From positions 1 through 64,000 of the forward strand of contig JBAXAI010000012.1 of NCBI GenBank assembly GCA_037142615.1: DNA of 64,000 nt, written 5' to 3'. Under the pieces are notes generated by a model. It made no database searches, was not told the origin of the DNA, and saw only the letters and a program-made list of their open reading frames with translations. Below are positions 13,669 through 57,006 of the stretch, piece by piece. Source of the DNA: Spirochaetales bacterium (GTDB lineage: Bacteria > Spirochaetota > Spirochaetia > JABEVK01). The position numbers and the translations under genes are program-made. Each line of letters opens with the position of its first letter. Position 1 is the stretch's first letter.

Positions 13669-13676
13669 AGAGGGGC

Positions 13677-43760: not shown

Positions 43761-43781
43761 AGCGCCCTCCTCACGGTCAAC

Positions 43782-44612
43782 TTAGGTCCCGGTCCCGGTG
43801 TAGCGGCGCAGACCGATGCGGAACAGAACGAAGCCAAAACCAACGAACGCCGCCGACAACAGCGCCATGCCGACGGGAACCCACGTCTTGCTCACGACGT
43901 CAAAGCCCAGCGCCGCCGATAGCGCCGCCGTGTCGCGCAAAAACCAGGCCATGGGCACGTAACTCACGACGGCGAAAGGAAGCACGAACAGCAGGAAGTT
44001 CTTCAGCCACACGTTCTTGTAGATGTCGAGCGGGTACTTGGTGAAGCTGTTGACCTCGTAGGCCACCTGCATCAGCTCGCCGCTCGACACCGTCCAGAAG
44101 GCCACCGCCGCCGCCGCCAGCTTGATGCCGAAGTACAGCGCCAAGCCGCAGACCAGGAACACCAGCAGCATGCCCAGTTCGGCGGGCCCGAGAGCCAGCC
44201 CCAATCGCAGCCAGGCGTAAGCGAACAGCAGGAACCCGACCAGCAGTTCGCCAAAGCCGTCGAACTGCACGCGCTCCATGATGATGTGCTGGATGATGCC
44301 GATAGGCCGCAGCAGGTAGTGGGTGAAGCTGCCGTCGCGGATACGCCACCACCCCACCAGCCAGATGTTGTCGTTGTAGATGTGGTCGATGCCGCGCACC
44401 ACCTGGCTCCAGCCGTAGAACAGCAGCATCTCGTCGAAGCTCCAGCCGCCCACCGCCTTGATCTGCGTGAACACCGCGAACAACACGAGGAAGGACCCAA
44501 TCTGCTGGATGCTCAGCGCGATGACGCCGATGAGGAAGTCGAGCTTGTACTCGACGAGGGCCTTCACCTGCTGGCTGAGGAACGCCGCGTAGATAGAAAA
44601 GAACCGGCGCAT
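43782..44612 (-). CDS. ABC-2 family permease (DUF990-like)
   Basis: EYKLDF, GGWSFDE, IRDGSF..YLLRP, KYPLDIY, GLRRYTGTGT; TGATG overlap. Confidence 0.88.
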   Translation of the reverse strand: MRRFFSIYAAFLSQQVKALVEYKLDFLIGVIALSIQQIGSFLVLFAVFTQIKAVGGWSFDEMLLFYGWSQVVRGIDHIYNDNIWLVGWWRIRDGSFTHYLLRPIGIIQHIIMERVQFDGFGELLVGFLLFAYAWLRLGLALGPAELGMLLVFLVCGLALYFGIKLAAAAVAFWTVSSGELMQVAYEVNSFTKYPLDIYKNVWLKNFLLFVLPFAVVSYVPMAWFLRDTAALSAALGFDVVSKTWVPVGMALLSAAFVGFGFVLFRIGLRRYTGTGT

Positions 44613-45487
44613 CAGCCCCCCTGAATCGTGACGCGTTTGAGCGCCCGACCCCAGGTGAGCCAAACCACGAGTGCCATCGCGAGCACCCAGAACGCCTGCA
44701 TGCCGAGGTGCCAGGCGATTTCGGTGGGGGTGCTGAGCATGCCGGTGGCAATAGCCGACGGCACGTAGTACAGCGAGGGGAACGGCGTGGCGTAGGCCAC
44801 GTACCCAAGGCCCGTCAGCAAGCCCTTCGTCAGTTCCTCGGGTAAGAACGGCACCGGGAAGTTGCCGCTGGGCGCGTTCGCCAACTGGAACAGCAGGTTG
44901 AACGCGATCACCTGCCCCGAGAACAGCGCGATGGCCTGGTCCTTGAACAGGAACAACCCCCAGTAGTTGGTGATCCAGAAGGCCACCAGCCCGAGCAAAA
45001 AGGCCACGAGAAGGGCCAGCACGTAGGTGAGGGCCAAGCTGAGCACCGTGAGCGCCACCGTCGTCAGGCTGACCGAGGCGATGGGCACCAAAAACGCGAC
45101 GATGACCACGAAGGGCACCAGCGCGAGCAGGTTGCCCACCGTGAAGCCCACCTGTTGGGCCACCTGCTCGCCGAAAAAGCTGTAGGGGCGCACCAGGTGC
45201 ATGGCGATGGCGCCGTCCTTGATGGTGCCGCCCACGTTGCCGTCGATGCCGCAGGCCGTGAGGCGGCCGAAGATCATGCCCAGCGCGACATAGCTGAGGT
45301 ACTGGCCCAGGCTGATGGTGCCCAGCGTGCCGCCATTCCCCCCGAACACCGCGCTCCACAAAAAGTACTGGATGAGCAGGAGCACCAGATCGTTGATCAT
45401 GAAGATCAGAACACGGACCCGGTAGGTCCACATCACCTGGATGTTGAGAGGAATGAAGCCGAGGTAGCGGTCGAGGCGCGCGAACAT
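44612..45487 (-). CDS. ABC-2 family permease (DUF990-like)
   Basis: TYR, LWSAVF, IKDGAIA..LVRP, AFW, FSG, TIQGG C-terminus. Confidence 0.88.
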   Translation of the reverse strand: MFARLDRYLGFIPLNIQVMWTYRVRVLIFMINDLVLLLIQYFLWSAVFGGNGGTLGTISLGQYLSYVALGMIFGRLTACGIDGNVGGTIKDGAIAMHLVRPYSFFGEQVAQQVGFTVGNLLALVPFVVIVAFLVPIASVSLTTVALTVLSLALTYVLALLVAFLLGLVAFWITNYWGLFLFKDQAIALFSGQVIAFNLLFQLANAPSGNFPVPFLPEELTKGLLTGLGYVAYATPFPSLYYVPSAIATGMLSTPTEIAWHLGMQAFWVLAMALVVWLTWGRALKRVTIQGG

Positions 45488-45492
45488 GCGCC

Positions 45493-46521
45493 CTAATTGT
45501 AACCCTTGGGGTTCTGGCTTTGCCAGCGCCACGCGTCAGCGCACATGGCGTCGAGGCCGCGGGTGGCCTTCCAGCCAAGTTCACGCTCGGCGAGGCTGGG
45601 GTCGGCGTAGCTGGCCGCCACGTCGCCGGGCCTTCGGGGTACCACTTCGTAGGGCACTTTTTTGCCGCTGGCCTTTTCGAAGGCCTTCACGACGTCGAGC
45701 ACGCTGCTGGGGTTGCCAGTGCCAAGGTTATACGCGACAGCCCCTGGCCTGGTCGCGAGCTTCTCGACGGCCTTGAGGTGGCCTTGCGCCAGGTCGACGA
45801 CGTGGATGTAGTCGCGCAGGCCGGTGCCGTCGGGCGTCGGGTAGTCGTTGCCGTACACCTTGAGCTGTGCGCGCATTCCCACGGCCACTTGGCTGACAAA
45901 CGGCAGCAGGTTGGCCGGCACGCCCAGCGGATCCTCGCCGATTTTGCCCGACGGGTGCGCTCCCACCGGGTTGAAGTACCGCAGCAGGATGACGTTCCAA
46001 GGGTTGGGATCCTTGGCGAGCACGTCGGCATGGGCTGCGTCACGCAGAATCTGCTCCATCATCACCTTGGTCCAGCCGTAGGGGTTGGTGGCAGCTGTCG
46101 GCAGATCCTCGGCGAAGGGCGGGTTGGGATTCTCGCCGTACACGGTGGCCGACGAGCTGAACACGATGTTTTTGACCCCGGCGGCGGCCATCGCCTCGCA
46201 GAGCACAATGGTGCCGGCGATGTTGTTGTGGTAGTAGCGCAGCGGCTGGGCCACCGACTCGCCCACCGCCTTGAGCGCCGCGAAATGAATCACAGCGTCG
46301 ATCTTGTGGGCGGCGAACACTTTGTCGAGGCCCGGACGGTCGAGCAGATCGACGCGGTGGAAGGTCAGCGCCTTGCCGGTGATTTCGCGCACCCGGTCGA
46401 GAGCGATGGTCTTGCTGTTCACGAGGTTGTCGACGACCACCACCTGATGGCCCGCGTTCAGCAGTTCCACGCAGGTGTGGCTTCCGATGTAGCCGGCCCC
46501 GCCGGCAACGAGAATGGTCAT
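45493..46521 (-). CDS. galE: UDP-glucose 4-epimerase
   Basis: GGAGYIGSH, KAVGES, SSSATVYG, YGWTK, LRYFNP. Confidence 0.97.
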   Translation of the reverse strand: MTILVAGGAGYIGSHTCVELLNAGHQVVVVDNLVNSKTIALDRVREITGKALTFHRVDLLDRPGLDKVFAAHKIDAVIHFAALKAVGESVAQPLRYYHNNIAGTIVLCEAMAAAGVKNIVFSSSATVYGENPNPPFAEDLPTAATNPYGWTKVMMEQILRDAAHADVLAKDPNPWNVILLRYFNPVGAHPSGKIGEDPLGVPANLLPFVSQVAVGMRAQLKVYGNDYPTPDGTGLRDYIHVVDLAQGHLKAVEKLATRPGAVAYNLGTGNPSSVLDVVKAFEKASGKKVPYEVVPRRPGDVAASYADPSLAERELGWKATRGLDAMCADAWRWQSQNPKGYN

Positions 46522-46530
46522 AGAAACTCC

Positions 46531-47748
46531 TTACAGTTTGGCCTCGCCAGCGCGGTCGGGGCGTACGCTCAGCCGGTGCACCGACCCGGGGCCGAACACC
46601 GCCTCCATCGTTTTCGCATAGTCCGCGGCCCGCTTCAAGGGAATATAGGCCTGGATGGTGCCGGCAAACCCGCCACCGTGGACGCGTACCGCCCCGACGC
46701 CTTGCGGGTTGTCGTGGCTCAAGAAGCGGCGCGTGAGGGCCAGGCCCAGAGGAATCGCCTGGTCGCGGATGGCGCCGTGGGGGATGACGTTCTGCAGGAA
46801 CTCGGCGCTCGAGGCCCCCGACGCGTCGACCAGTGCCAGGTAGTCCTCGAACCGCCCCGCCTCGATCGCCTTCACCATGTGCTCGACACGGAGGTTTTCT
46901 TCCAAGAAGTGCATCGCCCGCAGCACGGCCCGGTCGCCCACGCGGGCCCGCAGTCCGGCCACCTCGGCCCAGAACTTCGCGGGATCGACCTCGCGCAGAA
47001 CCGACTTGCCGAAGCAGGCCGCCACAGCGTTCATTTCACTGCGGATGGCGGCGTAGTCGGGAGTCAGGTCGGCGTGGTTGCCCTTGGTGTCGACAATGCA
47101 CAGCGCGTACCCGTGGGCCTCCCAGTCGAGGGCCAGTTGCCGGATCACGGGCTGGGACGGTGAGGCGAAGTCGATGGTGACCAGGCCGCCCACCGAGCTC
47201 GCCATCTGGTCCATCAGGCCGCACGGTTTGCCAAAGTGCAGGTTCTCAGCCTCCTGCCCGATGACGCCCAGCGTCACCGCGTCGACCTTGCCGTCGTTGT
47301 ACAGGGCGCTGAGAATGGTGCCGGTGAGGACTTCGAAGGCGGCCGAACTCGACAGTCCCGAGCCCTGGAGCACGCTGCTTTCGACACAGGCACGGAAGCC
47401 ACCCACTTTCAGACCCCGTTTGACGAACGCGGCGGCCACACCACGGAGCAAGGCTTCCGTCTTGCCCGTCTCGGCGGGTTGTGGCTCAAGCGAATCGAGG
47501 GCCACGCGGAATGGGGCGTCCCAGCCGGCGGAGCGCAGTTCGATCACGCCTTCGGCACGCTGAACGACGGCGGCGGCCTCGAGGTCGATGGCGGCGGCGA
47601 GGACCCGGCCGTTGTTGTGGTCGGTGTGGTTGCCCCCCAGTTCGGTACGGCCGGGCGCGGTAAAGGCCCGCAGGCCGGTGGTGTTGCCGTACACTTCGCC
47701 GAAGCGTTTGGTCAGGCGTGCGAAAACAGCGGCGCGTTCGCTTTTCAT
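46531..47748 (-). CDS. galK: Galactokinase (GHMP family)
   Basis: [39 protein letters not shown]; ATGA overlap with galT. Confidence 0.94.
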
Positions 47749-48809
47749 GAGGCGGCTCCCGGGGTAAGGACAGTTTCGACGCCGAGTGCCGTCTCGGCGC
47801 AGGCCCGGAGGCGCTCGGCGGCCTGCTCGGCGGTGATGTCGCGCTGGGGTTGAGCCAGCATCTCGTAACCCACCATGAACTTGCGCACGGTGGCCGAACG
47901 CAGCAGCGGCGGCAAAAAGTGCAGGTGCAGCTGCCAGTGGTCGTGCGCCTGCCCGTCGGTGGGGCGCTGGTGCAGGCCCATGGTGTACGGAAAACTCACC
48001 TGGAACAGGTTGTCGTAACGGCGCGTCATGCGGCCCAGCGCATCGGCCAGCCCAGCACGCTCGGCGCGGGTCAGTTCGGCCACGTCGCGGCGATGAGTTT
48101 TGGGGAGCAGCATGGTTTCGAAGGGCCACACCGCCCAGTACGGCACCACGGCCACCCAGGTGTCGTTTTCGAACAGCACGCGTTCCTTTTCTTTGAGCTC
48201 GAGCTTCAGGTAATCGAGCAGCAAGACGCTGCCCTTGTCTTTCAACCACTTGGCCTGCTGTTCGCCTTCGCGGGCTGGCAGGTCGGGCACCGTGCGCTGG
48301 GCCCAGATCTGCCCGTGCGGGTGCGGCATCGACGAGCCCATGATTTCGCCCCGGTTCTCGAAAATCTGCACCGAGTTGATTTCGGGGCGACCACCGAGGT
48401 CGAGGTACTGGGCCGCCCACTCGTCGACCACCTTGGTGAGGCCCTCGTTGGTCATGCGAGCCAAGGTGAGGTTGTGTTCGGGGCTGAAGCACACGACACG
48501 GCACAAGCCCGCTTCGGCTTCGGCCACGAGCAAACCGCCTTCGTTGCGCGCCCCGGTCGGAACGTCGGTCAGCAGCGCCGAGAAGTCATTGGTGAAACTG
48601 AACACGTCGGTGTAGGCGGGATTCACGTCGCCGGTGACCCGCTTGTTGCCGGGGCACAAATAGCAATTGGGATCGTGCTTGGGCATGTTGGTGGGCGGCA
48701 CAGCCTCGACCTTGCCCTGCCAGGGCCGCTTGGTGCGGTGCGGCGACACCAGTACGGTCTCACCCGTCAGCGGGTTAAATCGGCGGTGCGGAACGTCATT
48801 CCAATCCAT
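47745..48809 (-). CDS. galT: Galactose-1-phosphate uridylyltransferase
   Basis: [42 protein letters not shown]. Confidence 0.97.
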
Positions 48810-48830
48810 AAAGTCTCCTGTTTCGCGACG

Positions 48831-48871
48831 ATGTACACGTGTACATTACGGTCAAAAGACGAGACTGTCAA
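48831..48871 (-). promoter_or_regulatory. gal operon promoter and LacI-type operator
   Basis: TTGACA(48871-66)-17-TAATGT(48848-43); perfect palindrome ATGTACACGTGTACAT at 48831-48846 covers -10/+1. Confidence 0.8.
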
Positions 48872-48898
48872 GTCAATCAGGCATGCGACGGTTTTTTC

Positions 48899-48907
48899 TG
48901 TTACAAT
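48899..48907 (+). promoter_or_regulatory. Extended -10 promoter for menA
   Basis: TGtTACAAT, followed by SD AGGAG and ATG. Confidence 0.55.
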
Positions 48908-48927
48908 GCGCAACGACAGGAGTTCTC

Positions 48928-49959
48928 ATGGACATTAAAATGTGGGGCAAGGCCCTGAGTATCATCCCTGCGGTGACAAAGGACGAGTGGAACGCCCTCG
49001 ACTTCGTAGCCAAGTGGCTGATTGCCACCCGCGCGGCCGTCCTGCTGATGACTTTTTTGTCGGCGGCGCTCGCCGGACTGTTCGCTGCCCGCGACGGCGG
49101 CTTCGAGTTTCTGCCGTGGCTGGCGGTCGCGCTGGGGCTGATTCTGGCCCATGCGACCAACAACATTGTGAACGACTACACCGACTTTGTGCGTGGCGTC
49201 GACACCGACAACTACTTCCGACGGCAGTACGGGCCGCAGCCGGTGGCCGAAGGCCTGCTGACCAAGGGCCAAACCCTGCGCTGGGCCATCACCACGGGCG
49301 TGATCGCCTTGGCCATTGGCTTGGGCCTGTCGTGGTGGCGGGGCTGGGATCCGGTCGTCCTGTATTTGCTGTTCGGCGGCGTGTTCCTGGTGCTGGCCTA
49401 CACGTGGCCGCTCAAACAACTCGCGCTCGGTGAAGTGTCGGTCATCCTGGCGTGGGGCCCGCTGATGATCGGTGGCGGCTACTACACGCTCACCGGCCAC
49501 TGGGACTGGAACGTGGTGCTCGCGGGTCTGCCCTACGCGCTGGGCGTGACCACCGTCATCTTCGGCAAGCACATCGACAAACTCGAAATCGACAAGGCCA
49601 AGAAGATCCACACGCTGCCGGTGCTCATCGGCGAAAAGGCCTCGCGCTGGGCGGTCATCGCGATGATGTTGCTGCCCTACCTGCTGGTGGGTGGCCTGAT
49701 CGCGACCAAGTACTTCACCCCGGTGATGGCGCTCGTGGTGCTCGCCATTCCGTCGTCGCTCAAGACCATCCAACTCTTCCTCAAACCACGACCGGCGGAG
49801 CGTCCCGAGTGGATGGCCGAGGGCAATGGTGGCTGGCCGTTGTTCTTTGCGCCGATCGGGTTTATCAACAACCGGGCCTTTGGCCTGTGGTTCCTGCTGG
49901 GACTGATTGTCGATGTCGCTTTGCGGGTGATTCCAGCCACCAGCGGCTTCTGGCGGTAG
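48928..49959 (+). CDS. menA: UbiA-superfamily prenyltransferase, MenA (DHNA prenyltransferase)-like
   Basis: NIVNDYTDFVRGVD, LAYT.PLK..ALGE, HIDKLEIDKAKKIHTLPV; multi-TM. Confidence 0.8.
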   Translation: MDIKMWGKALSIIPAVTKDEWNALDFVAKWLIATRAAVLLMTFLSAALAGLFAARDGGFEFLPWLAVALGLILAHATNNIVNDYTDFVRGVDTDNYFRRQYGPQPVAEGLLTKGQTLRWAITTGVIALAIGLGLSWWRGWDPVVLYLLFGGVFLVLAYTWPLKQLALGEVSVILAWGPLMIGGGYYTLTGHWDWNVVLAGLPYALGVTTVIFGKHIDKLEIDKAKKIHTLPVLIGEKASRWAVIAMMLLPYLLVGGLIATKYFTPVMALVVLAIPSSLKTIQLFLKPRPAERPEWMAEGNGGWPLFFAPIGFINNRAFGLWFLLGLIVDVALRVIPATSGFWR

Positions 49960-49964
49960 AGCCG

Positions 49965-50786
49965 GTGGACCTCGAAACCCTGTATCAACCGATTGCCAGC
50001 GAGTTGGACGCCGTCAAGGTCGGTCTGAGTGCCTTGGCCAACACGTTCCACTACGGGCACACCAACACCATCCTGGAGCATTTCTTCCAGCGTCCGGGCA
50101 AGCTCTTGAGGCCGGCACTGGTGCTCCTGTCGGCGAAGGCCCTGGTGGATCCCCTGCCCGCTCCGCTGCGCGAACGGCTGGTGCAAACCGCCTTGGGGGT
50201 CGAACTGCTGCACGATGCGAGCTTGGTGCACGACGACGTGCTCGACAGTGACACCGAGCGCCGGGGGCAGGCCACGCTCAATGGGGCTTGGGGCAACAAG
50301 ATCGCGGTGCTGGCGGGCGACGTCATCTACTCGCGCGGGTTCGGGCTTTTTACGCAGGCCTTGCCACAGCCGCTTTTGGCCGACGTGATCCGCCTGAACG
50401 AGCAGATGTGCTCGGCCGAGATCGAACAGGCCCGGACGCTCGGAAGCCCGCTCGACCGGGAAACCTATTTCCGCATCATCGAGGGCAAGACCGCCGCGTT
50501 CATGAGCGTTTGCTGCCACCTGGGTGCGTCGGTGGCCGCTGAGGTGAACCCGAACTACTTGCCGCATGCCTTCACCCTGCGCCGTTTCGGGCTGGCCTTC
50601 GGCCTGGCGTATCAACTCTTTGACGACCACGCCGATGGCGACCTGAACTGTCCGGGCCTCGACGGCGTGACCGAGGGCCGCCGCCATCTGGCGAAAGCGG
50701 TCGATCTGGTAAGTTCGTTACCACCAAGCCCCGCAAGCTTGGAACTCTCTCATCTTTGCTCATTCCTCCAGGAACAAAACTCGTAA
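49965..50786 (+). CDS. Polyprenyl diphosphate synthase (C-terminally short)
   Basis: GKLLRP, ELLHDASLVHDDVLD..RRG, LAGD, GKTA, YQLFDDHAD. Confidence 0.88.
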   Translation: MDLETLYQPIASELDAVKVGLSALANTFHYGHTNTILEHFFQRPGKLLRPALVLLSAKALVDPLPAPLRERLVQTALGVELLHDASLVHDDVLDSDTERRGQATLNGAWGNKIAVLAGDVIYSRGFGLFTQALPQPLLADVIRLNEQMCSAEIEQARTLGSPLDRETYFRIIEGKTAAFMSVCCHLGASVAAEVNPNYLPHAFTLRRFGLAFGLAYQLFDDHADGDLNCPGLDGVTEGRRHLAKAVDLVSSLPPSPASLELSHLCSFLQEQNS

Positions 50787-50839
50787 TTCATTTGACAGCG
50801 GGTCCTTTCGGGTAGTTAATGGAAATTAACGGAGGATTT

Positions 50840-52393
50840 ATGTCAGATTTAAAGTATCCCGAGGATAAGAAGCTGGGTCCCCAGTTTTCCAGCTTGATGA
50901 TCGACGAAGTTCCCAACTACGGCAACCGTTTCCAGTACTCGCTGGGGTTTCTGGCGGCCATCGCGTTCACCATGCTTATTGTCACTGGCGTGATCGAAGT
51001 GTTCTTCGGCGCCGACTGGTGGCTGACCAACAGCGTGGGTATTTTCTTCCGCAGCATTCACCTTTGGGCCACGCAGGCCTTTGTGGTGTTCATCATTCTT
51101 CACCTTGTCGTGGTGTTCTGTACCATGGGCTACCGTGGCAAACGCAAGATCACCTGGGTGCTCGGTGTGTTGATGTTCCTGTTCGCCTTGATTGAGACCG
51201 AAATGGGCTACGCCCTCCGTGGCGACTTCTCGGCCCAGTGGCGCGCGCTGCAGGGCGCTGACTTCTTCAACGGCTCCGGCCTGGGTCTTTGGATCAACCC
51301 GCTCAACGAACTCAAGATCATGGGCACCCACATCATGATCATGCCGCTGATCATCATCACCATTTTGGTGGTGCACTACATGTTGGTCCGCTTCCTGGGT
51401 CTTGCCACGCCTCCCAAGCCCGACCATCCGCACCGCATCGAAAAAGCCAACCACACCGTGCTGTTTCTGCGCGGCGGTTTTGTCGCGGTGCTCGTCATTG
51501 TGCTCGCTATCCTGCTCCCTTCCCCCTACGTCAAGCCCGTGACGGCGGCCGAAGTCGCCAAGAGTGACCCCAAACTGTTTGCCCGCACGCTGGTGGGTGA
51601 ATTTGGCCGGCTGGAAAGCCTGGTCGTTCCCGGTCAGGCCGCCGACGTCAAAGAGGCCGATCTGGAAGCGCAAGACCTCACCTCAGGCTATGTCGACAAC
51701 CTGCACCCCTACACCGACAAAGTGGATGAGGCAACCAAGGCCGCCGACCCCGGCGTTCCCGGCATTGCCTTCGACACACGCGAAGTGTTCGTCAAGCAAC
51801 CGTGGTCCGGACTGGTCGCTGGCGGACGCCTGACCGACGATTTGGCCACCATCGAAAAGCTCAGCGCTGAAGAACAGGCCAAGCTGGTGGAAGAAGCCGC
51901 CGACTATTTCGGCGACAACAAGGGCAACGTGCAGCCGGCGAACAACCTGCTGATCGGTGTGGTCAACAACCTGACCACCCTGGCGACTTCCGGCTACTAC
52001 GACCAGTACCTCAAGGGTTACGGCAACGCGGGCGACAACACCAAGTTTCTCCGCTTCATGGCCGACCTGGGCGTGCTCGCGCCACTGGCCGACGCGATGG
52101 ACATCACCACCGAAAAGTGGGGCTTCCTGCGCGAAGAAAAGCCGACCGGCACCGACGGCAAGCCGATGATGGACGTCGCCACGCCCCCCGGAGCTTGGTG
52201 GCTGGCCCCGATCGGCGTGCTCAACACCACGGTTCTCGTGGGTGACGACAACGGCGACCGCGACGGAGCCATGATCCTGGGCATTCTGGTGCTGATTCTG
52301 GGTGCGGTTCCCTTCATCCCTGGAGTCAACAAGCTGCCCCTGTACCTGAGCCTTTACAAGCTATTCCAGCGCAAACCCAAGGCTGCGAAGTAG
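50840..52393 (+). CDS. Cytochrome b/b6 N-terminal-domain protein fused to a large soluble domain
   Basis: SD GGAGG; RSIHLW-(H-x13-H), TWVLG, GYAL, H-x14-H in helix D; fifth TM, about 240-aa soluble region, C-terminal TM. Confidence 0.85.
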   Translation: MSDLKYPEDKKLGPQFSSLMIDEVPNYGNRFQYSLGFLAAIAFTMLIVTGVIEVFFGADWWLTNSVGIFFRSIHLWATQAFVVFIILHLVVVFCTMGYRGKRKITWVLGVLMFLFALIETEMGYALRGDFSAQWRALQGADFFNGSGLGLWINPLNELKIMGTHIMIMPLIIITILVVHYMLVRFLGLATPPKPDHPHRIEKANHTVLFLRGGFVAVLVIVLAILLPSPYVKPVTAAEVAKSDPKLFARTLVGEFGRLESLVVPGQAADVKEADLEAQDLTSGYVDNLHPYTDKVDEATKAADPGVPGIAFDTREVFVKQPWSGLVAGGRLTDDLATIEKLSAEEQAKLVEEAADYFGDNKGNVQPANNLLIGVVNNLTTLATSGYYDQYLKGYGNAGDNTKFLRFMADLGVLAPLADAMDITTEKWGFLREEKPTGTDGKPMMDVATPPGAWWLAPIGVLNTTVLVGDDNGDRDGAMILGILVLILGAVPFIPGVNKLPLYLSLYKLFQRKPKAAK

Positions 52394-52400
52394 CACCAAC

Positions 52401-52435
52401 TTGACCTGAACACGTGTTCACGCCATGCTGGCAAC
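52401..52435 (+). promoter_or_regulatory. LacI gene promoter (leaderless) with autoregulatory operator
   Basis: TTGACC-17-CATGCT-6-ATG; spacer contains the palindrome TGAACACGTGTTCA (52407-52420). Confidence 0.75.
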
Positions 52436-53419
52436 ATGCCTACCCGTCAGGATGTTGCCAGCAAAGCCGGCGTGAGCGGCGCCACCGTCAGCCGGGTGTA
52501 CAACTCGCCTGGCCTGGTTGACGCCGCCACCCGTGAACGCGTGCGGGCTGCCGCTGCCGCGTTGGGCTTTGTCCCCGACCGCCATGCGGCTGCCTTGCGG
52601 CGCAAAACCAGCACCACCCTGCTTCTTGTCGAAATCGAGGACTCCGAGGCCTACCGGTGGCCAGGTCAGCGTGCGTACCAGAGCCTGTACGGCGAGATCA
52701 TCCGTGGGCTGGTGCATCACCTTCAGACGACCCCGTGGCACCTCGAGCTTGTCAACTTACCTTCATCACGCGACCTCCCTTCGTTGGTGGCGGGCCCCGA
52801 GTTTGCGGGGATTCTGGGGTTTGACGTGGTCACCCAGGCGGTGGCCGACGAACTGGCGAAGCTGGGGAAGCCGGTGGTCTGCGCCCACCATGGCGATCAT
52901 CTGACCGGTGTCAGTACCGTGACAACCGACAATTTCGCCGGAGGCGCGCTTCAGGCGCGCTGGCTTCGCGAGCAAGGCCTGGTTGACGTGGCGTACGTCA
53001 CAGGACTTTCGGACCAGGTCAGGTCGCACTCGTTGCGCCAGCAGGGCTTCGCCTCGGTTCTGCAACCCCTTGAACTGCTCGCCACGGGCGTCGGTCTGCT
53101 GGAAGGGAGGCAAGCCGCCCGGAGTCTGGCGCCCCTGGTCAAAACGGGCCGGGTGAGGGCTGCGGCCTGCGTGAACGACCTGACGGCGCTGGGGCTGATC
53201 CAGGGCTTGGCCTCGCTGGGCTTGCAGGTTCCGCGCGATGTGGTGGTGCTGGGCTACGACAACCTGGTGGTGACCGATCTGTTCGAGACCCGCTTGCCCA
53301 CCATTGAGGCCCGGTTGCCCCTCGTGTACGAGCAGGCGCTCGACGTGCTGATCGGTCTGGTGCAGCACCCCGGCGGAGAGACCCACCTCGCCGTGATCCC
53401 CGAATTAGCGGGGGTCTGA
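52436..53419 (+). CDS. LacI-family transcriptional regulator
   Basis: TRQDVASKAGVSGATVSRV HTH, TDNFAGG, NDLTALG, VPRDVVVLGYDN. Confidence 0.95.
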   Translation: MPTRQDVASKAGVSGATVSRVYNSPGLVDAATRERVRAAAAALGFVPDRHAAALRRKTSTTLLLVEIEDSEAYRWPGQRAYQSLYGEIIRGLVHHLQTTPWHLELVNLPSSRDLPSLVAGPEFAGILGFDVVTQAVADELAKLGKPVVCAHHGDHLTGVSTVTTDNFAGGALQARWLREQGLVDVAYVTGLSDQVRSHSLRQQGFASVLQPLELLATGVGLLEGRQAARSLAPLVKTGRVRAAACVNDLTALGLIQGLASLGLQVPRDVVVLGYDNLVVTDLFETRLPTIEARLPLVYEQALDVLIGLVQHPGGETHLAVIPELAGV

Positions 53420-54286
53420 AACGACCACCCGGTTGCGCCCGGATTCCTTGGCTTCGTAAAGGGCCCGGTCGGCGTGCTCGAGCAGATGGTCTCCACTGGT
53501 GTCGGCGAGGGTCATTTCGGCCACGCCGATGCTGACCGTGAAGCGAATCGACTGGCCTTCGTGTTCCACAGCGACGGCGGCGACTTTTTCGCACAGGCGA
53601 ACGGCGAGCCCTCGCGCATTGGCCAAGTCGGCGCCAGGAAGCAGAACGGCAAACTCCTCGCCGCCCAAACGGCCTGCCACGTCGAAACGGCGTAGGGTGG
53701 CGCTAACCAAGTCGGCGAACTGCCGCAGAAGGGTATCGCCCGCGGCGTGGCCGTAGTTGTCGTTCACGCGCTTGAAGTGATCCAGGTCGAGCATCAACAA
53801 CGACACAGGCTGGTCGGGTTGCCTCTGGAACCGCGAGATTTCGGCCTCGTAGAGGGCCAAAAACGACCGGCGGTTGCAAAGGCCGGTCAGAAAGTCGGTC
53901 GCGGCGAGGTCTCTCAGTTCCAGTTCCAAACGTTTATGGCCGGAAATGTCGGTGACGGTGCCGAAGTAGCCCACCAATTCTTCGCCCTCGCGGTCGTCGG
54001 TGGCCTGCCCGAGCACCCAGATCGTCGAACCGTCGCGCCGCACCAGGCGAAAATCCTCCGAAAAAGGCCCACCACCGTGAGCGAAGGCAGCCCAGCGTGC
54101 CAGCACCCGTTCGCGGTCGTCGTCGTGGATAACCTCGGTCCAGCCGTCGTCCTGAGCCCGGGCTGAGTTCTGGCCCGTGAGCAAGGTCCAGCGGTCGTTG
54201 ACGTAGTCGCAGCGGCCCTGGAGGTCGGTCCGGAAGATTCCGACAGGGAGGTGCTCGAGCAGGCGCGTCATCATTCCCGGTTGCAT
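53405..54286 (-). CDS. PAS-GGDEF diguanylate cyclase
   Basis: PAS (IHDDDR, TDIS); DFLTGL.NRR, DLDHFK.VND.YGH, RRFD I-site, GGEEF. Confidence 0.94.
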   Translation of the reverse strand: MQPGMMTRLLEHLPVGIFRTDLQGRCDYVNDRWTLLTGQNSARAQDDGWTEVIHDDDRERVLARWAAFAHGGGPFSEDFRLVRRDGSTIWVLGQATDDREGEELVGYFGTVTDISGHKRLELELRDLAATDFLTGLCNRRSFLALYEAEISRFQRQPDQPVSLLMLDLDHFKRVNDNYGHAAGDTLLRQFADLVSATLRRFDVAGRLGGEEFAVLLPGADLANARGLAVRLCEKVAAVAVEHEGQSIRFTVSIGVAEMTLADTSGDHLLEHADRALYEAKESGRNRVVVSDPR

Positions 54287-54323
54287 AGCCTCATCGTCTT
54301 CTTTTTGCTGGAGTTTGACAAGT

Positions 54324-55109
54324 TCACTCCTGCGCCGAGGCCAAGCGGTACAGCGCCACGCTGGCCGCAACCGAAGCGTTGAGGCTATCGTGCCCCTCGG
54401 CCATGGGAAGCACCAAGGGGATGGAACCCTGCAGCCGTTCGGTAGGCGACAACCCTTCGAACTCGTTGCCTACCCACACCGCCAGTTTGCCGGCCCTCGC
54501 TGTGCGCCCAGCGGGACTTTCGCGCCACACTTCCAAGGGAAGAGCACCCTCTTCCAGCGCCAAAACGACCGTCGTCCACCCGGCCTGCCCGAAGAGCTTC
54601 TGCATCGCAACCAAAGAGTCGGGTAACTGCACGGGCGGGTGGGCGTACACCGCGCCCATCGACACCTTGGCGCAGCGGCGGCTGAAGGGGTCGCACGATT
54701 CCCGTCCCACCGCCACCGCATCCCAGCCCAGGGCCAGCGCCGAACGGTAGAGCGCGCCGAGGTTCTCGGGATCGGTGAGCCGTGGGGCCACGGCAAGCCG
54801 CCGGGCAGGACCGGCCAAAAAGGCTTCCAGAGTCAGCGGCGCGGGCCGATGGGCCACGGCAATCACGCCCCGATGAAAGGAAAAACCCGCCCACCGGTCC
54901 ATTTCGGCCTGCGACAGCACCTGAACCGGGCAGCGCCCCGCGGCCAAAACCGTGAACTCGGCGTAGTGTGCCTCGAGGCAGTGAACCGCCTCGGGAACCA
55001 ACGACGATGCGAGCAAACGGCGGGCCAAGGTGTTTCCTTCGGCCAACGTGAGGCCGGAACGGGTCCACTGCCGTTCGCTGAAGCCCCAGTACGGGGTGGG
55101 ATCGTCCAT
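54324..55109 (-). CDS. TrmH/SpoU RNA methyltransferase
   Basis: DPENLGALYRSA, VSMG, GNEFEGL, LPM..DSLNASVA. Confidence 0.9.
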   Translation of the reverse strand: MDDPTPYWGFSERQWTRSGLTLAEGNTLARRLLASSLVPEAVHCLEAHYAEFTVLAAGRCPVQVLSQAEMDRWAGFSFHRGVIAVAHRPAPLTLEAFLAGPARRLAVAPRLTDPENLGALYRSALALGWDAVAVGRESCDPFSRRCAKVSMGAVYAHPPVQLPDSLVAMQKLFGQAGWTTVVLALEEGALPLEVWRESPAGRTARAGKLAVWVGNEFEGLSPTERLQGSIPLVLPMAEGHDSLNASVAASVALYRLASAQE

Positions 55110-55110
55110 G

Positions 55111-56139
55111 CTAAACGAGAAGCTTCTCGACTTCCTTGATGCAAGCTTCCAGCCGTTCGTAGTAGTCCGGCGAGCTGACGGTGACAAACTTGCGCATGTC
55201 AAAGCCAAAATCCTTGTACATCTTCATCAACGCCGTGTGGTTGGTGTCGCGCAGCACTTCACCGGTGTCGCGCATGCCATCGTCGATCCACGGCACGTTG
55301 GGCTTGAGCGCCAGCACGAGGTCGTACTTGTTCGGGTCGATGAAACTCTCGAGGCGGCTCGACACCTGCCCCATGAAGAACACACTGAAAAAGCGGGTCA
55401 CCACCGCGTCGGTGTCGAAAAAGCAGACCTTGCTACTGGTGGCCAGTGCCTGCAGGTCCTGCTCGTACTGGATGTGGGCGATGCGATTGAAGTCTTCGAG
55501 CTCAAAGAGCGTCCCGTCGCCCCCCAAAAAGTCTTCCTGGTAGGTGCGGCCGGCCTCTTCGGACCAACTGGTGTAGAACACCTTGGCCAGCTTCTTGGTC
55601 AGCGTGGTCTTGCCGCAGCTTTCAGTGCCGGTGATGAGCACACGCTTGGTGAAGAACGGACGCGCGGCGCCGACGATGTAGTCCCAGTACTTGTAAGGAT
55701 GCTGGCGAATCTCGGTGCTGCTGATGTTCCACTTGCTGCGGTTGGGGTCGAGCAGGCGGTACTCGGCCTCGGGAAACGCCCGTTTGTGATCTTCGGTGTA
55801 GCGGGTTTCGCCACCGAACACGAGGTCGATTTTTTTGCCGACGGCTCCGCGGACCAGTTGGGCGTACTCCGTCCAACCGTAGGGCGAAGGCGGAATGTCG
55901 GCCTCATCGACCAGGCGGATGCGGATGCCCAGCCCCTTCAACTCTTGCGCCAACCAGCGTCGGCGCAGGGCGCCGTCAACGTAGGCGATTCCCGCGTCAC
56001 GGCACAGCGCTTCGTCTTCTTCGCGGCGCTCGCTCACCACCACAAAGAGCTCATCGCACAAGGCGTGCGCGCGCAGGATTCCGGTCAGGTGACCACGGTG
56101 GGGAGGCAGAAAACGACCGGGAAAGACGCCAACGCTCAT
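55111..56139 (-). CDS. nadR: NadR-like NMN adenylyltransferase / ribosylnicotinamide kinase (no HTH)
   Basis: PGRFLPPHRGH (HIGH-like), ISSTEIR, GTESCGKTT Walker A, DTDA, PWIDDGMR. Confidence 0.88.
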   Translation of the reverse strand: MSVGVFPGRFLPPHRGHLTGILRAHALCDELFVVVSERREEDEALCRDAGIAYVDGALRRRWLAQELKGLGIRIRLVDEADIPPSPYGWTEYAQLVRGAVGKKIDLVFGGETRYTEDHKRAFPEAEYRLLDPNRSKWNISSTEIRQHPYKYWDYIVGAARPFFTKRVLITGTESCGKTTLTKKLAKVFYTSWSEEAGRTYQEDFLGGDGTLFELEDFNRIAHIQYEQDLQALATSSKVCFFDTDAVVTRFFSVFFMGQVSSRLESFIDPNKYDLVLALKPNVPWIDDGMRDTGEVLRDTNHTALMKMYKDFGFDMRKFVTVSSPDYYERLEACIKEVEKLLV

Positions 56140-56148
56140 GGCGCTACA

Positions 56149-57006
56149 CTACACCACGACGGGTGCCTTGAGAAGGGTTGGAGCAGGACGCCGCGCCCCG
56201 ATGACGCTCGCGGCCGTCACGCTCAGCAAGATGAGCGCACCACCGGCCAGCGTCCAGCCCGACGGAGCCTCGCCGAGCGCCAGGAACACCCACACGGGGT
56301 TGAACAGCGGCTCGATCACGACGAGCAGGCTTCCCGTGGTAGCCGACACCCGCTTGATGCCGTAGCTGAAGAACAGCGCGGCCAGGCCCATCTGCACTAC
56401 GCCCAAGGCCACGATGAGCCCGATCGAGAGCGGCGTGAACACCGGCAGTGGCTGAAAGGCCGCGATTCCCAGCGTGCCAAAGGCCGCCAAAAATTGCGAC
56501 AGCAGCATCGAGTGCACCGGGTTACCGTCCTTTTGACGGCGGGTCAGGATGATCATGAACGCGAAGGCCAGCCCCGAGGCCAGCGCGGCCAGGTTGCCCC
56601 ACAGCGCGCCGGGCCCCAGTTTGTCGGCGAAGAGCAGCACCAGACCAGCCAGCGTGGCCACCAGCGCGACAATTTGTTCCGGGTGAAGCTTTTCGCGCAG
56701 AAACCAGATGGCCAGCAGCGCCGTCGGCACTGGCGCCCAGTATTGGATGAGGATGGCATTGGCCGAGGTGGTCATTTTGTTGGCCAACACGAACAGAACC
56801 ATGCACACGGCGTTCGCGACGGCCGCCAGCACCAGCGTGGGGCTCCAAGCGATCTTCCAGGGGCGGACGACCACGAGCAGGAACAGCCCCGCGATCAGGC
56901 TCCGCAGGCCGGCGATCCAAAAAGGGCTCCAGTCGAGCAGCTTGATGAACAGGCCGGCCGTGCTCCAGAAGAACGCGCAGGCGACGAGGGCGAGGGAACC
57001 TTTCAG
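56149..57006 (-). CDS. DMT/EamA family transporter (probable CTG start)
   Basis: LVACAFFWSTAGLFIK, IAGLRS, ANAILIQY.AP, IEPLFNPVW..LGE.P. Confidence 0.85.
   Translation of the reverse strand: MKGSLALVACAFFWSTAGLFIKLLDWSPFWIAGLRSLIAGLFLLVVVRPWKIAWSPTLVLAAVANAVCMVLFVLANKMTTSANAILIQYWAPVPTALLAIWFLREKLHPEQIVALVATLAGLVLLFADKLGPGALWGNLAALASGLAFAFMIILTRRQKDGNPVHSMLLSQFLAAFGTLGIAAFQPLPVFTPLSIGLIVALGVVQMGLAALFFSYGIKRVSATTGSLLVVIEPLFNPVWVFLALGEAPSGWTLAGGALILLSVTAASVIGARRPAPTLLKAPVVV

What the first reader, a model, noticed from the sequence alone, without database searches (positions are those of the whole stretch)
48928..52393. Candidate quinone electron-transfer module: MenA + polyprenyl synthase + orphan b6-like cytochrome b with a large extracytoplasmic domain
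Seen: three co-oriented genes. The cytochrome keeps all four heme-ligand His residues (H-x13-H in helix B; H-x14-H in helix D, the b6-type spacing). It has YSLG where b6 has the heme-ci Cys (YCLG) and lacks PEWY (PGAWWL lies near the C-terminus). About 240 aa of soluble sequence sits between TM5 and a final TM. No Rieske, cytochrome c or CxxCH gene is adjacent. Known: cytochrome b/b6 normally lies in Rieske/cyt b operons. A MenA-like plus HepT-like pair (DmkA/DmkB) supplies a dedicated demethylmenaquinone for extracellular electron transfer in Listeria and lactobacilli. Inference: this may be a stand-alone system that prenylates DHNA (possibly scavenged) and moves electrons between quinone and the periplasm via a Rieske-independent di-heme b protein.
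Basis: partly seen in the sequence, partly recalled or inferred. Interest (0 to 1): 0.75.

Follow-up and report, generated by a model that had tools for sequence, protein, structure and literature searches.

The report
Rieske-less cytochrome b with prenylquinone genes
A freshwater spirochaete carries an optional three-gene cassette joining two quinone-tail enzymes to an unstudied two-heme membrane cytochrome that works without its usual iron-sulfur partner, giving the first contextual hint that this widespread cytochrome family deals with membrane quinones.

Summary
Three real, co-oriented genes lie at 48928-52393: a MenA-like UbiA prenyltransferase, a short polyprenyl synthase (PPS) and a 524-aa cytochrome b. 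The cytochrome has all four heme-ligand His and about 240 outward-facing residues, with no Rieske or CxxCH gene nearby.

- The cytochrome is the fused form of a widespread, uncharacterised gene pair: a b6-like cytochrome plus a TM-ectodomain-TM partner.
- This scan had already flagged the fused form six times in Saccharibacteria.
- By a motif check, its homologues are not in Rieske operons (0 of 80 fused loci, 1 of 80 split loci).
- UbiA lies beside it in only 6 of those 160 loci, all labelled Spirochaetota. There it recurs in two gene orders and with at least two MenA-like lineages.

The cassette is optional. Congeners have an empty slot between galT and lacI, or UbiA-PPS without the cytochrome. 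All 12 genomes of the order lack MenB and MqnA/D, so head-group scavenging is plausible. No FLEET genes accompany the cassette.

Best reading (about 0.45): the cassette makes an extra demethylmenaquinone-like quinone, and the cytochrome passes electrons between that quinol and an unknown outside partner. Function is untested.

The parts
48928..49959 (+). MenA-like UbiA-family prenyltransferase (343 aa), accessory paralog
   Evidence: Pfam UbiA 114.4 bits. Best NCBIfam hits are PRK05951 prenyltransferase (100.3 bits) and DHNA polyprenyltransferase models (85 bits), all below their cut-offs. NDYTDFVRGVD Asp-rich motif. 81% identical ortholog in G010. 62-69% identical homologues; the few with a taxon name are Anaerolineales/Chloroflexota. 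An exact 220-nt RNA-library contig covers 49240-49459.
49965..50786 (+). Short (273 aa) long-chain-type polyprenyl diphosphate synthase
   Evidence: Pfam polyprenyl_synt 129.8 bits, matching profile positions 5-190 of 251 only. Best solved relative is octaprenyl-PP synthase 3rmg (99.6 bits, query 8-238 against chain 11-236 of 334), so about 60 residues after the second DDxxD are missing. It belongs to a conserved family of ~263-288 aa. In Clostridium that family lies upstream of MenA, an Rce1-like gene and MenG.
50819..52393 (+). Fused Rieske-less cytochrome b (524 aa; 517 aa from Met8 at 50840)
50876..51415 (+). b6-like four-helix di-heme core (residues ~20-199)
51452..51514 (+). TM5 (residues 212-232), start of the 'partner' half; preceded by the conserved ANH motif
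   Evidence: Model helix 212-232. The stand-alone partner proteins of the split form begin here.
51515..52252 (+). Extracytoplasmic domain (residues ~233-478), with PGAWW (457-461) and DDNGDRD (476-482)
   Evidence: No Pfam family. In the Atlas only its own family matches (TM 0.70 to a 492-aa fused homologue). No invariant Cys or His in this part among 126 sequences. Residues 266-292 have low pLDDT and fall within an insertion that only the window's clade carries.
52253..52315 (+). Last TM helix (residues 479-499), followed by a basic cytoplasmic tail
   Evidence: The structural alignment to long cytochromes b runs through this helix.
47745..48809 (-). galT, left border of the cassette's insertion slot (not part of the module)
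   Evidence: Pfam GalP_UDP_transf and GalP_UDP_tr_C. In G008 and G009 galT and lacI are direct neighbours, with gaps of ~148 and ~83 bp.
52436..53419 (+). LacI-family regulator, right border of the slot (not part of the module)
   Evidence: Pfam LacI and Peripla_BP_3. In G010, homology to the window resumes at 52400, 7 nt after the cytochrome's stop.

Best explanation
The three genes form an optional cassette that sits between galT and a LacI-type regulator.

The parts.
- UbiA is a second, accessory MenA-like prenyltransferase.
- The PPS is a short variant of long-chain polyprenyl diphosphate synthases. Its family lies beside menaquinone tail-end genes in Clostridium.
- The cytochrome is the fused form of a widespread two-gene unit: a cytochrome b6-like four-helix di-heme core, plus a partner made of a TM helix, a ~240-residue outward-facing domain and a final TM helix.

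The host. It has quinol oxidases (cytochrome bd and a heme-copper oxidase) and a core MenA-like gene. It has no MenB, no MqnA/D, no HemB and no full-length MenG.

Proposed mechanism (inferred).
1. UbiA and PPS prenylate a scavenged naphthoquinone head group (DHNA or similar) into an extra, probably unmethylated (demethylmenaquinone-like) quinone.
2. The cytochrome, without a Rieske protein or cytochrome c, passes electrons through its two b hemes between that quinol pool and an unidentified partner at its outer domain.
3. The direction (quinol oxidation or quinone reduction) is open.

Shown: gene reality, family and fold, heme-ligand conservation, absence of Rieske linkage, the presence/absence pattern, and the pathway gaps.
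Inferred: the UbiA substrate, quinone binding by the cytochrome, and any coupling between the three products.
For: (1) Linkage within the order. All 5 cytochrome-bearing genomes (G000 and 4 of 4 in genus g4) have a match to the window's UbiA beside the cytochrome. Both UbiA and PPS flank it in the window and in the four g4 loci, in two gene orders: UbiA-PPS-cytb here, UbiA-cytb-PPS in g4.
(2) Two further Spirochaetota MAGs (L137, L160) carry a UbiA directly downstream of the split cytochrome pair.
(3) In a quick tree, the window/G010 UbiA and the g4 UbiA share one supported subfamily (SH-aLRT 98). The L137/L160 UbiAs are a separate clade (99), left in an unresolved fork with a genuine MenA. 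So at least two MenA-like lineages lie next to this cytochrome family.
(4) In g4 the module is embedded in a quinone and respiration island: MenA (TIGR00751 119.9 > 102.15), UbiE/MenG (259 > 216), a Pyr_redox_2 flavoprotein, and CyoA (302.4 > 266.2) with COX1.
(5) The short PPS family lies upstream of MenA, an Rce1-like gene and MenG in 10 of 13 Clostridium-type loci. Its closest solved relatives are octa-, deca- and heptaprenyl synthases.
(6) Pathway gaps: MenB 0 of 12 and MqnA/D 0 of 12 genomes. G000 has no ALAD match and no full-length UbiE (best 58.9 bits over profile positions 37-152, against 241-244 bits in g4). Cytochrome bd, COX1, heme o synthase and a core MenA-like gene are present.
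(8) No Rieske linkage.
(9) Weak support for expression: exact contigs from metatranscriptome libraries inside the UbiA and cytochrome genes. DNA carry-over is not excluded.
Against: - Outside Spirochaetota the cytochrome is never next to UbiA or PPS: 76 of 80 fused and 78 of 80 split loci lack them within the flanks.
- Four spirochaete-type fused loci at 60-63% identity (L003, L004, L005, L080) lack them too.
- G010 keeps intact UbiA-PPS with no cytochrome anywhere in its genome.
- The family is commonest in Saccharimonadia, other Patescibacteria and DPANN, groups generally held to lack quinone synthesis (my background knowledge). In 251 Saccharimonadales genomes the UbiA hits are mostly heme o synthase genes beside COX1.
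- The UbiA scores below every curated MenA cut-off.
- The PPS lacks about 60 residues after its second Asp-rich motif and might not be a standard synthase.
- No sequence-level match to the cytochrome b C-terminal domain (PF00032) in 15 members at E up to 5.
- The ectodomain has no conserved Cys or His for a redox cofactor.
- The oxidases occur in the order with or without the cytochrome (COX1 9 of 12, bd 10 of 12).
- Kin are not independent. The linkage rests on about three lineages.
Confidence: 0.45

Rival explanations
1. Co-location without coupling. The cytochrome works independently of the UbiA-PPS product. It could act on the general quinone pool. Or it could be a quinone-independent transmembrane electron conduit (in the manner of cytochrome b561, ferric reductases or MsrQ) that carries electrons from the cytoplasmic side to an outside acceptor. 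It merely landed beside a quinone-tail cassette in an accessory slot.
For: - The cytochrome gene is a clean 1.6-kb presence/absence difference next to an otherwise intact UbiA-PPS pair.
- Most family loci have no UbiA or PPS.
- The family thrives in Patescibacteria and DPANN.
- In four Patescibacteria loci it is directly followed by FMN_bind, ApbE and an RnfD/NqrF-fusion gene. That set is the NAD(P)H-driven 'NQR/RNF-like' outward electron path of Meheust et al. 2021 (PMC8238504, passages read).
- VIT1 iron transporters and NDH-2-like genes recur near split pairs in Bacillota.
- Pfam shows weak DUF4405 and Ni_hydr_CYTB (b561) similarity in 14 and 9 of 15 members.
Against: - Three different arrangements, involving at least two MenA-like lineages, put a UbiA next to this cytochrome in Spirochaetota. 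That is hard to get by chance.
- In g4 the cytochrome lies between UbiA and PPS.
- The core is b6-like by sequence and the whole protein is bc-type by fold, not b561-like.
- 12 of 15 cytochrome-positive Saccharimonadales genomes carry COX1, against 110 of 236 negatives (kin not independent). From G007's CyoA result I take these to be quinol oxidases, which I did not test in Saccharimonadales.
Confidence: 0.3
2. UbiA and PPS make a prenylated product that is not a respiratory quinone (for example a prenylated lipid, pigment or other aromatic), and the cytochrome is unrelated to it.
For: - The UbiA is below all curated MenA cut-offs, and its best NCBIfam hit is a generic 'prenyltransferase' model.
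- Its close homologues in Chloroflexota have no PPS, cytochrome or quinone gene among the neighbours I checked.
- The PPS is atypically short.
- The genome already has a core MenA-like gene.
Against: - MenA models are the best specific hits for both the window UbiA and the g4 cytochrome-linked UbiA.
- The first Asp-rich motif is of the MenA-like N-D-x-x-D-x-x-x-G-x-D form, also seen in the L137/L160 and Chloroflexota homologues (that this form marks MenA is recalled).
- The short PPS family is tied to MenA and MenG in Clostridium.
- The g4 neighbourhood is full of quinone and respiration genes.
Confidence: 0.1
3. It is the cytochrome b subunit of an ordinary Rieske/cytochrome b complex whose Rieske and cytochrome c partners are encoded elsewhere.
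For: - The fold is that of bc-complex cytochromes b.
- The genome has one Rieske-domain gene and one cytochrome c assembly-family gene, so c-type cytochromes cannot be excluded.
Against: - The only Rieske protein is a ~100-aa soluble ferredoxin without a membrane anchor, beside a desaturase-like gene.
- The genome's only ORF with two or more CxxCH motifs is a radical-SAM/ferredoxin protein.
- Rieske motifs are absent from 159 of 160 family loci.
- There is no PEWY and no heme-ci Cys.
- In g4 the heme-copper oxidase has a CyoA-type (quinol oxidase) subunit II, which needs no bc complex (not tested in G000).
Confidence: 0.03

Closest known systems
Cytochrome b6 plus subunit IV (PetB/PetD) of b6f, and short QcrB plus QcrC of Bacillota bc complexes
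   Different: No Rieske partner in the genome or in homologous loci. YSLG instead of the heme-ci Cys motif. PGAWW instead of PEWY. Only two TM helices after the core. A ~240-residue ectodomain of unknown fold where the short ef loop would be. No PF00032 match.
DmkA/DmkB of the flavin-based extracellular electron transfer (FLEET) locus of Listeria and Lactiplantibacillus
   Same: A MenA-like prenyltransferase plus a polyprenyl synthase, encoded together as an accessory pair beside the core quinone genes, in an organism that needs an outside head group. PMC9888254 (passages read) describes DmkA and EetB/DmkB as membrane DMK synthesis proteins and DHNA as an exogenous precursor.
   Different: No Ndh2, EetA/B, PplA or FmnA/B nearby. 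The genome's only ApbE locus is unrelated. The associated electron carrier is a di-heme cytochrome b, not a flavoprotein. I could not compare sequences with Listeria DmkA/DmkB here. In L. plantarum, dmkA and dmkB were not required for EET (Table 2 of PMC9888254).
Partial menaquinone pathways that salvage DHNA or quinones (for example Streptococcus agalactiae; quinone-dependent gut bacteria)
   Same: MenA-like and PPS genes with quinol oxidases, but no head-group synthesis and possibly no heme synthesis. [quoted passage not shown]
   Different: There are two MenA-like paralogs here, one of them in a mobile-looking slot, and an added Rieske-less cytochrome b.
NQR/RNF-like flavinylation-associated system (Meheust et al. 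2021, PMC8238504)
   Same: In four Patescibacteria loci the cytochrome is immediately followed by FMN_bind, ApbE and an RnfD-like/NAD-binding fusion. That matches the paper's definition (passages read).
   Different: Not present in this window. It is linked in only a minority of loci (clusters in 6-11 of 80). The paper's main text has 0 occurrences of 'cytochrome b'.
Di-heme cytochrome b anchors of periplasmic dehydrogenases (FdnI, HyaC)
   Different: Far weaker than the bc-type match, and below the tool's stated level for helical bundles. A different heme-ligand pattern. No dehydrogenase genes adjacent.

Membership tests
Cytochrome b/b6 N-terminal family (PF00033, PF13631) | Profile match above Pfam's gathering score | tested here: met
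   50.6 bits (cut-off 27) and 34.8 bits (cut-off 27.2). All 15 of 15 members match both families.
Cytochrome b/b6 N-terminal family (PF00033, PF13631) | Four His heme ligands on helices B and D with b6-type spacing | tested here: met
   H81/H95 (13 residues between) and H171/H186 (14 between). Invariant in 126 sequences. Heme binding itself was not tested.
Cytochrome b/b6 N-terminal family (PF00033, PF13631) | Four-helix bundle fold of cytochrome b | tested here: met
Rieske/cytochrome b complex (bc1, b6f, Bacillota bc) | Rieske iron-sulfur subunit encoded with, or at least alongside, cytochrome b | tested here: not met
   One Rieske domain in G000, a soluble ~100-aa ferredoxin on C7. Rieske-motif ORFs in 0 of 80 fused and 1 of 80 split loci (regex only).
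Rieske/cytochrome b complex (bc1, b6f, Bacillota bc) | Qo-site P-E-W-Y (PxWY) motif | tested here: not met
   No PEWY. PGAWW at 457 is a possible positional counterpart, by inference only.
Rieske/cytochrome b complex (bc1, b6f, Bacillota bc) | Cytochrome b C-terminal / subunit IV domain (PF00032) | tested here: inconclusive
   No PF00032 hit in 15 members at E up to 5. However, the fold alignment to long cytochromes b covers ~90-100 residues beyond the b6 core, through TM5 and the last TM.
Rieske/cytochrome b complex (bc1, b6f, Bacillota bc) | Heme ci Cys (CxGG) of short b6-type cytochromes | tested here: not met
   YSLG at residue 40, with Y40, S41 and G43 invariant.
Rieske/cytochrome b complex (bc1, b6f, Bacillota bc) | c-type cytochrome acceptor subunit | tested here: inconclusive
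   No CxxCH ORF in window 40000-60000. The only ORF in the genome with two or more CxxCH is a radical-SAM protein. One Cytochrom_C_asm gene exists, so mono-heme cytochromes c are not excluded.
MenA, 1,4-dihydroxy-2-naphthoate polyprenyltransferase (TIGR00751 and PRK06080 models) | Score above the curated equivalog cut-off | tested here: not met
   TIGR00751 47.5 bits against 102.15. The best MenA model scores 85.4 against 277. For contrast, the second UbiA of G007 passes at 119.9.
MenA, 1,4-dihydroxy-2-naphthoate polyprenyltransferase (TIGR00751 and PRK06080 models) | UbiA-superfamily fold with Asp-rich motifs | tested here: met
   Pfam UbiA 114.4 bits. NDYTDFVRGVD at residue 82.
MenA, 1,4-dihydroxy-2-naphthoate polyprenyltransferase (TIGR00751 and PRK06080 models) | Prenylates DHNA | not testable with these tools
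   Needs an enzyme assay or complementation.
DmkA/DmkB (FLEET demethylmenaquinone branch) | Accessory MenA-like and PPS pair, additional to the core quinone genes | tested here: met
   The window-type UbiA is in 6 of 12 genomes and the core MenA-like gene in 11 of 12. G000 has three PPS genes.
DmkA/DmkB (FLEET demethylmenaquinone branch) | Encoded in a locus with Ndh2, EetA, EetB, PplA and FmnA/B | tested here: not met
   Flanks are gal genes, LacI and PAS-GGDEF. The only ApbE locus has no FMN_bind or NDH-2 neighbour.
DmkA/DmkB (FLEET demethylmenaquinone branch) | Sequence orthology to Listeria DmkA/DmkB | not tested
Long-chain trans-polyprenyl diphosphate synthase (IspB/HepT type) | Two DDxxD motifs and small residues before the first | tested here: met
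   LLHDASLVHDDVLD and FDDHAD in the sequence. Aligns to the octaprenyl synthase 3rmg motif region. The rule that small residues give long chains is recalled.
Long-chain trans-polyprenyl diphosphate synthase (IspB/HepT type) | Full-length catalytic domain above the curated cut-off | tested here: not met
   All NCBIfam scores are far below their cut-offs (HepT 107.4 against 456.55). The Pfam match stops at profile position 190 of 251. About 60 residues are missing relative to 3rmg.
Fused/split 'cytochrome b6-like plus TM-ectodomain-TM partner' family (unnamed) | Full-length homology including ANH, PGAWWLxPIG and DxNGDRD, with a C-terminal anchor | tested here: met
   42-81% identity to the other 125 members over the full length. 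The stand-alone partner has a b6-like gene directly upstream in 76 of 80 loci.

The most novel reading that the evidence does not exclude
The cytochrome family is a new class of minimal, Rieske-independent quinol:acceptor (or donor:quinone) oxidoreductase. Its novel outer domain takes the place of the Rieske and cytochrome c head. It would be shared by free-living bacteria (as a gene pair) and by ultra-small Patescibacteria and DPANN symbionts (as a fusion). In spirochaetes it would be supplied by its own dedicated demethylmenaquinone, made from scavenged DHNA by the adjoining MenA-like and short-PPS pair.
Probability: 0.25. Interest if true: 0.85.

Novelty: new variant of a known kind. Interest (0 to 1): 0.6.

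Why it matters
All characterised cytochromes b of the bc/b6f type work with a Rieske protein (my background knowledge). Here is a well-conserved relative, with at least 537 confirmed split-form loci and 89 confirmed fused-form matches, that does not.

It is among the few respiratory-type proteins in many Patescibacteria and DPANN genomes, so it bears on how such cells handle electrons.

The spirochaete cassette adds something the earlier sightings lacked. Naphthoquinone-prenylation genes lie next to the cytochrome repeatedly and in different arrangements. There are also natural 'with' and 'without' genomes (G000, G010, G008/G009). Together these turn an unknown into a testable hypothesis.

It also adds a likely case of respiration that depends on scavenged quinone head groups, and perhaps scavenged heme, in a freshwater spirochaete lineage.

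Tried and rejected
- A single-protein locus scan for the cytochrome found nothing. The alignment-based scan worked.
- The first fold, from 15 sequences, was poor (pLDDT 61) and was replaced.
- The Chloroflexota loci of the UbiA subfamily gave no informative neighbours (EamA, epimerase, PFK, seryl-tRNA synthetase and others).
- The promoter and terminator scan of 48500-52700 was at chance level (1 against 1.1 and 3 against 4.1 expected). It gave no operon evidence either way.
- Oxidase presence does not track the cytochrome within the order.
- The C16 ApbE locus is not FLEET-like.
- No PF00032 hit for the C-terminal half, and no Pfam family for split partners.
- The Atlas search of the ectodomain gave only its own family. 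Feature scores of 0.83 are leads only.
- Whole-model fold searches are dominated by the cytochrome core.
- The 463-aa and 179-aa genes between the PPS and MenA in Clostridium have no PDB sequence relative at E 1e-5, so my guess that they are UbiD/UbiX-like is unsupported.
- G007's 427-aa unknown gene and its Rce1-like gene have no tblastn hit in G000.
- RNA-library contigs cover only 49240-49459, 51058-51243 and 52450-52500. The rest of the stretch, including both gene junctions, has no cover in these contig sets, and runs X3 and X4 laid nothing. This says nothing about co-transcription.
- A cytochrome c assembly gene was found, so I dropped the argument that the organism has no c-type cytochromes at all.
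- No cytochrome remnant remains in the G010 spacer, so gain and loss cannot be told apart.
- Earlier-notes look-up for this genome: nothing relevant.
- Complex prediction was not used, because the report claims no specific protein-protein contact.
- Print searches for the family: the phrase 'cytochrome b N-terminal domain-containing' is in 2 papers, neither about this family by title and abstract start in the listing. A search on cytochrome b, Rieske, Saccharibacteria, Patescibacteria and orphan (147 papers held at least 3 of the 5 terms; the 15 listed were seen) gave only Dibrova et al. 2017 as relevant. Its Fig. S1 and supplements, which might list these proteins in 'subfamily G', could not be seen.

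Full report
WHAT IS THERE. Window 48928-52393 holds three co-oriented ORFs separated by 5 and 32 nt. P0001 is a 343-aa UbiA-family protein. P0003 is a 273-aa polyprenyl synthase (PPS) with a GTG start. P0002 is a 524-aa cytochrome b; the public record and the Atlas start it at Met8, giving 517 aa. All three pass Pfam's gathering scores. None reaches a curated NCBIfam equivalog cut-off. There are six hydrophobic segments, with about 240 soluble residues between the fifth and sixth. No ORF with CxxCH lies within 40000-60000. The flanks are galE-galK-galT on the opposite strand and a LacI-family regulator downstream.

THE CYTOCHROME IS A MEMBER OF A LARGE, UNSTUDIED FAMILY. A word-indexed search gave 399 relatives among the candidates scored. 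In 126 aligned sequences the four His are invariant. So are many further columns, including A210 and H212 of the ANH motif, W460/W461, and N478 and D480 of a DxNGDRD loop. The other residues of PGAWWLxPIG and DxNGDRD are at least 90% conserved. The scan of species genomes confirmed 89 matches, of which 80 loci were kept. Six are labelled Rectinemataceae or Spirochaetales, six Propionibacteriaceae or Actinomycetota, and five DPANN archaea. Most of the rest are Saccharimonadia, Saccharibacteria or other Patescibacteria.

FUSED AND SPLIT FORMS. Earlier notes of this scan had flagged the fused protein six times in Saccharibacteria and claimed a split form exists. I tested that claim. An exhaustive search with residues 200-524 found 29 representative clusters, including stand-alone proteins of 280-362 aa that begin at the TM5 equivalent. 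Their genes are very common. Cultured Alicyclobacillus, Sulfoacidibacillus, Ferroacidibacillus, Acidithrix, Raineyella and Oricola are among them. In 76 of the 80 kept loci a b6-like gene lies directly upstream on the same strand, and three of the four exceptions sit at contig edges. The unit is therefore a two-gene pair, and the window's protein is its fusion.

WHAT SITS NEXT TO IT. No neighbour is widely conserved. Among fused loci the largest neighbour clusters cover 6-11 of 80 loci. Three of those clusters are FMN_bind, ApbE and an RnfD-like/FAD/NAD fusion. They lie immediately downstream and co-oriented in L010, L015, L026 and L029. This matches the 'NQR/RNF-like system' of Meheust et al. 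2021, whose main text never mentions cytochrome b (PMC8238504, passages). Around split pairs the recurrent neighbours are LuxR-type response regulators (18 loci), histidine kinases, MFS transporters, NDH-2-like flavoproteins (4) and VIT1 (3). A regular-expression check found Rieske-type motifs in 0 of 80 fused and 1 of 80 split loci, and CxxCH ORFs in 4 and 5.

THE UbiA/PPS LINK. By tblastn, UbiA and PPS flank the cytochrome in only 4 of 80 fused loci (L006-L009, Spirochaetales). The order there is UbiA-cytb-PPS, not the window's UbiA-PPS-cytb. A UbiA lies directly downstream of the split pair in 2 of 80 loci (L137, L160, both Spirochaetota). Four spirochaete-type fused loci (L003, L004, L005, L080) have neither.

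The window's order holds 12 species genomes. The cytochrome is in G000 and in 4 of 4 genomes of genus g4, and in 0 of 4 other species of G000's own genus. Synteny shows three states of one slot:
- G008 and G009: galT and lacI are direct neighbours.
- G010: galT, UbiA (81% identity), PPS (68%), lacI.
- G000: the same, plus the cytochrome.

In G010, homology resumes 7 nt after the cytochrome's stop with no remnant, so the direction of change is unknown.

The window-type UbiA is accessory (6 of 12 genomes). A second MenA-like gene (G000 C1) is core (11 of 12). A quick IQ-TREE (SH-aLRT support, long outgroup branches, midpoint root, one 28-residue row dropped) gives three results:
- The window/G010 UbiA and the g4 cytochrome-linked UbiA (38% identical) fall in one subfamily (98).
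- The window's gene nests among Chloroflexota sequences (62% identical).
- The L137/L160 UbiAs form a separate clade (99), left in an unresolved fork with a genuine MenA.

So at least two MenA-like lineages, in three arrangements, lie next to this cytochrome family. All are in Spirochaetota.

CONTEXT IN GENUS g4 AND IN CLOSTRIDIUM. In G007 the triplet lies back to back with a divergent operon: an unknown 427-aa gene, a MenA that passes TIGR00751 (119.9 > 102.15), an Rce1-like protease and UbiE/MenG (259 > 216). A Pyr_redox_2 flavoprotein follows. A few kb further lie CyoA (302.4 > 266.2) and COX1.

The short PPS is not a broken gene. It belongs to a family of ~263-288 aa (703 relatives among the candidates scored). 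In Clostridium-type loci, 10 of 13 have MenA and the same Rce1-like gene downstream of the PPS, and 12 of 13 have MenG. Its closest solved relatives are octa-, deca- and heptaprenyl synthases. It lacks about 60 residues after the second Asp-rich motif, so standard activity is not assured.

THE HOST'S METABOLISM. G000 is 96.7% complete.
- Present: cytochrome bd; one COX1; a heme o synthase that passes its cut-off; four UbiA paralogs, one directly beside cydA; three PPS genes; one ApbE.
- Absent: MenB and MqnA/D, in G000 and in all 12 genomes of the order. G000, G008 and G010 have no ALAD match.
- Full-length UbiE/MenG occurs only in g4.
- The single Rieske protein is a small soluble ferredoxin beside a desaturase-like gene.
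- One cytochrome c assembly-family gene exists, but no multi-heme cytochrome c is evident.

This fits an organism that respires with quinol oxidases on a scavenged naphthoquinone head group, and perhaps scavenged heme. That lifestyle is known from S. agalactiae and others (PMC6030563, listing only).

SACCHARIMONADALES CHECK. In 251 sampled genomes the cytochrome is in 15, COX1 in 122 and UbiA in 150. Twelve of the 15 cytochrome-positive genomes have COX1 (not G013, G063 or G131), against 110 of 236 negatives. The strong UbiA hits lie 2-3 kb from COX1, so they are probably heme o synthase genes. This is a mild association with an aerobic chain. Kin are not independent, and I ran no statistical test.

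EXPRESSION. Two metatranscriptome libraries from one freshwater study hold exact contigs inside the UbiA gene (220 nt) and the cytochrome gene (186 nt). DNA carry-over is not excluded, and the gene junctions are not covered.

VERDICT.

Rieske independence and a plausible scavenged-DHNA background hold up. The three-gene 'stand-alone system' is better described as an optional quinone-tail cassette (UbiA-PPS) to which a member of a widespread Rieske-less cytochrome pair has been added in some spirochaetes. The DmkA/DmkB comparison is apt as an analogy: an accessory MenA-like and PPS pair. It fails as membership, because there is no FLEET context, and sequence orthology was not tested.

My best mechanism (confidence 0.45) is a dedicated demethylmenaquinone-like quinone served by a Rieske-less di-heme cytochrome that exchanges electrons with an unknown outside partner. 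The main rival (0.3) is co-location without coupling, with the cytochrome acting as a general or quinone-independent transmembrane conduit.

In print I found only a passing placement of Saccharibacteria and Patescibacteria cytochromes b in 'subfamily G' of Dibrova et al. 2017 (PMC5600118, passages). I could not confirm that it is the same family, because the supplements were not visible. I found no description of the ectodomain, the Rieske-less pair or the MenA link in the searches.

Noticed in passing
G000:C4:80806-83077 (own genome, outside the window): A divergent UbiA-family gene (292 aa; weak hits only, best 36.7 bits to a generic prenyltransferase model) lies directly upstream of cytochrome bd subunit I on the same strand. 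That makes a second pairing of a UbiA paralog with a heme/quinol protein in this genome.
   Followed up: partly
G000 whole genome; also G008 and G010: No ALAD (HemB) match, although the genome encodes heme o synthase, cytochrome bd, a heme-copper oxidase and this cytochrome b. This points to possible heme auxotrophy. Six of the 12 genomes of the order do have ALAD.
   Followed up: partly
L001 (G000:C7:18699-21956): The genome's only Rieske domain is a ~100-aa soluble ferredoxin encoded next to a 336-aa membrane protein with His-box motifs like those of fatty-acid desaturases or hydroxylases.
   Followed up: no
L010 7491-10170; also L015, L026, L029: In four Patescibacteria loci the fused cytochrome is immediately followed by FMN_bind, ApbE and an RnfD-like/FAD/NAD fusion protein, the published 'NQR/RNF-like' flavinylation system. 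The paper that defined that system does not mention a cytochrome b.
   Followed up: partly
P0246 (982 aa, metagenome protein): One family member carries the whole fused cytochrome, then an extra TM helix and a ~480-residue C-terminal region with weak beta-propeller (PQQ_2-like) similarity below cut-off. It could be a fused outside redox partner or a gene-calling artefact.
   Followed up: no
L200-L212 (Clostridium spp.), about 8000-14000 in most loci: A conserved co-oriented cluster: short PPS, then three genes of ~164, ~179 and ~463 aa with no PDB relative for the two tested, then MenA, an Rce1-like CAAX-protease-family gene and MenG. The MenA, Rce1-like, MenG unit is shared with spirochaete genus g4. 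Why a protease-family membrane protein sits between MenA and MenG is unexplained.
   Followed up: partly
L124, L132, L139 (Bacillota, including Sulfoacidibacillus): Split cytochrome pairs are followed by a radical-SAM gene, a VIT1 iron-transporter gene and an NDH-2-like flavoprotein in a few loci. Several cultured hosts of the pair are acidophilic iron oxidisers (from my knowledge of the genera). This is a hint of an iron-related role.
   Followed up: no
G107:C10:123194-134410 (a Saccharimonadales genome): The fused cytochrome lies 3.4 kb from COX1 and about 9 kb from the oxidase-linked UbiA (probably a heme o synthase) on the same contig.
   Followed up: no
window 52244-52264 (residues 476-482 of the cytochrome): The nearly invariant DDNGDRD loop just outside the last TM helix resembles the Asp/Asn-rich calcium-binding loops of EF-hand or dockerin type (the resemblance is recalled, not tested). 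It could be a metal site on the outer face.
   Followed up: no
(metagenome proteins P0007/P0128/P0275 and P0008/P0125/P0281): Homologues of all three cassette proteins list the same longest-contig lengths (26833 and 18208 bp). This suggests two more uncultured relatives carry the full triplet on one contig.
   Followed up: no
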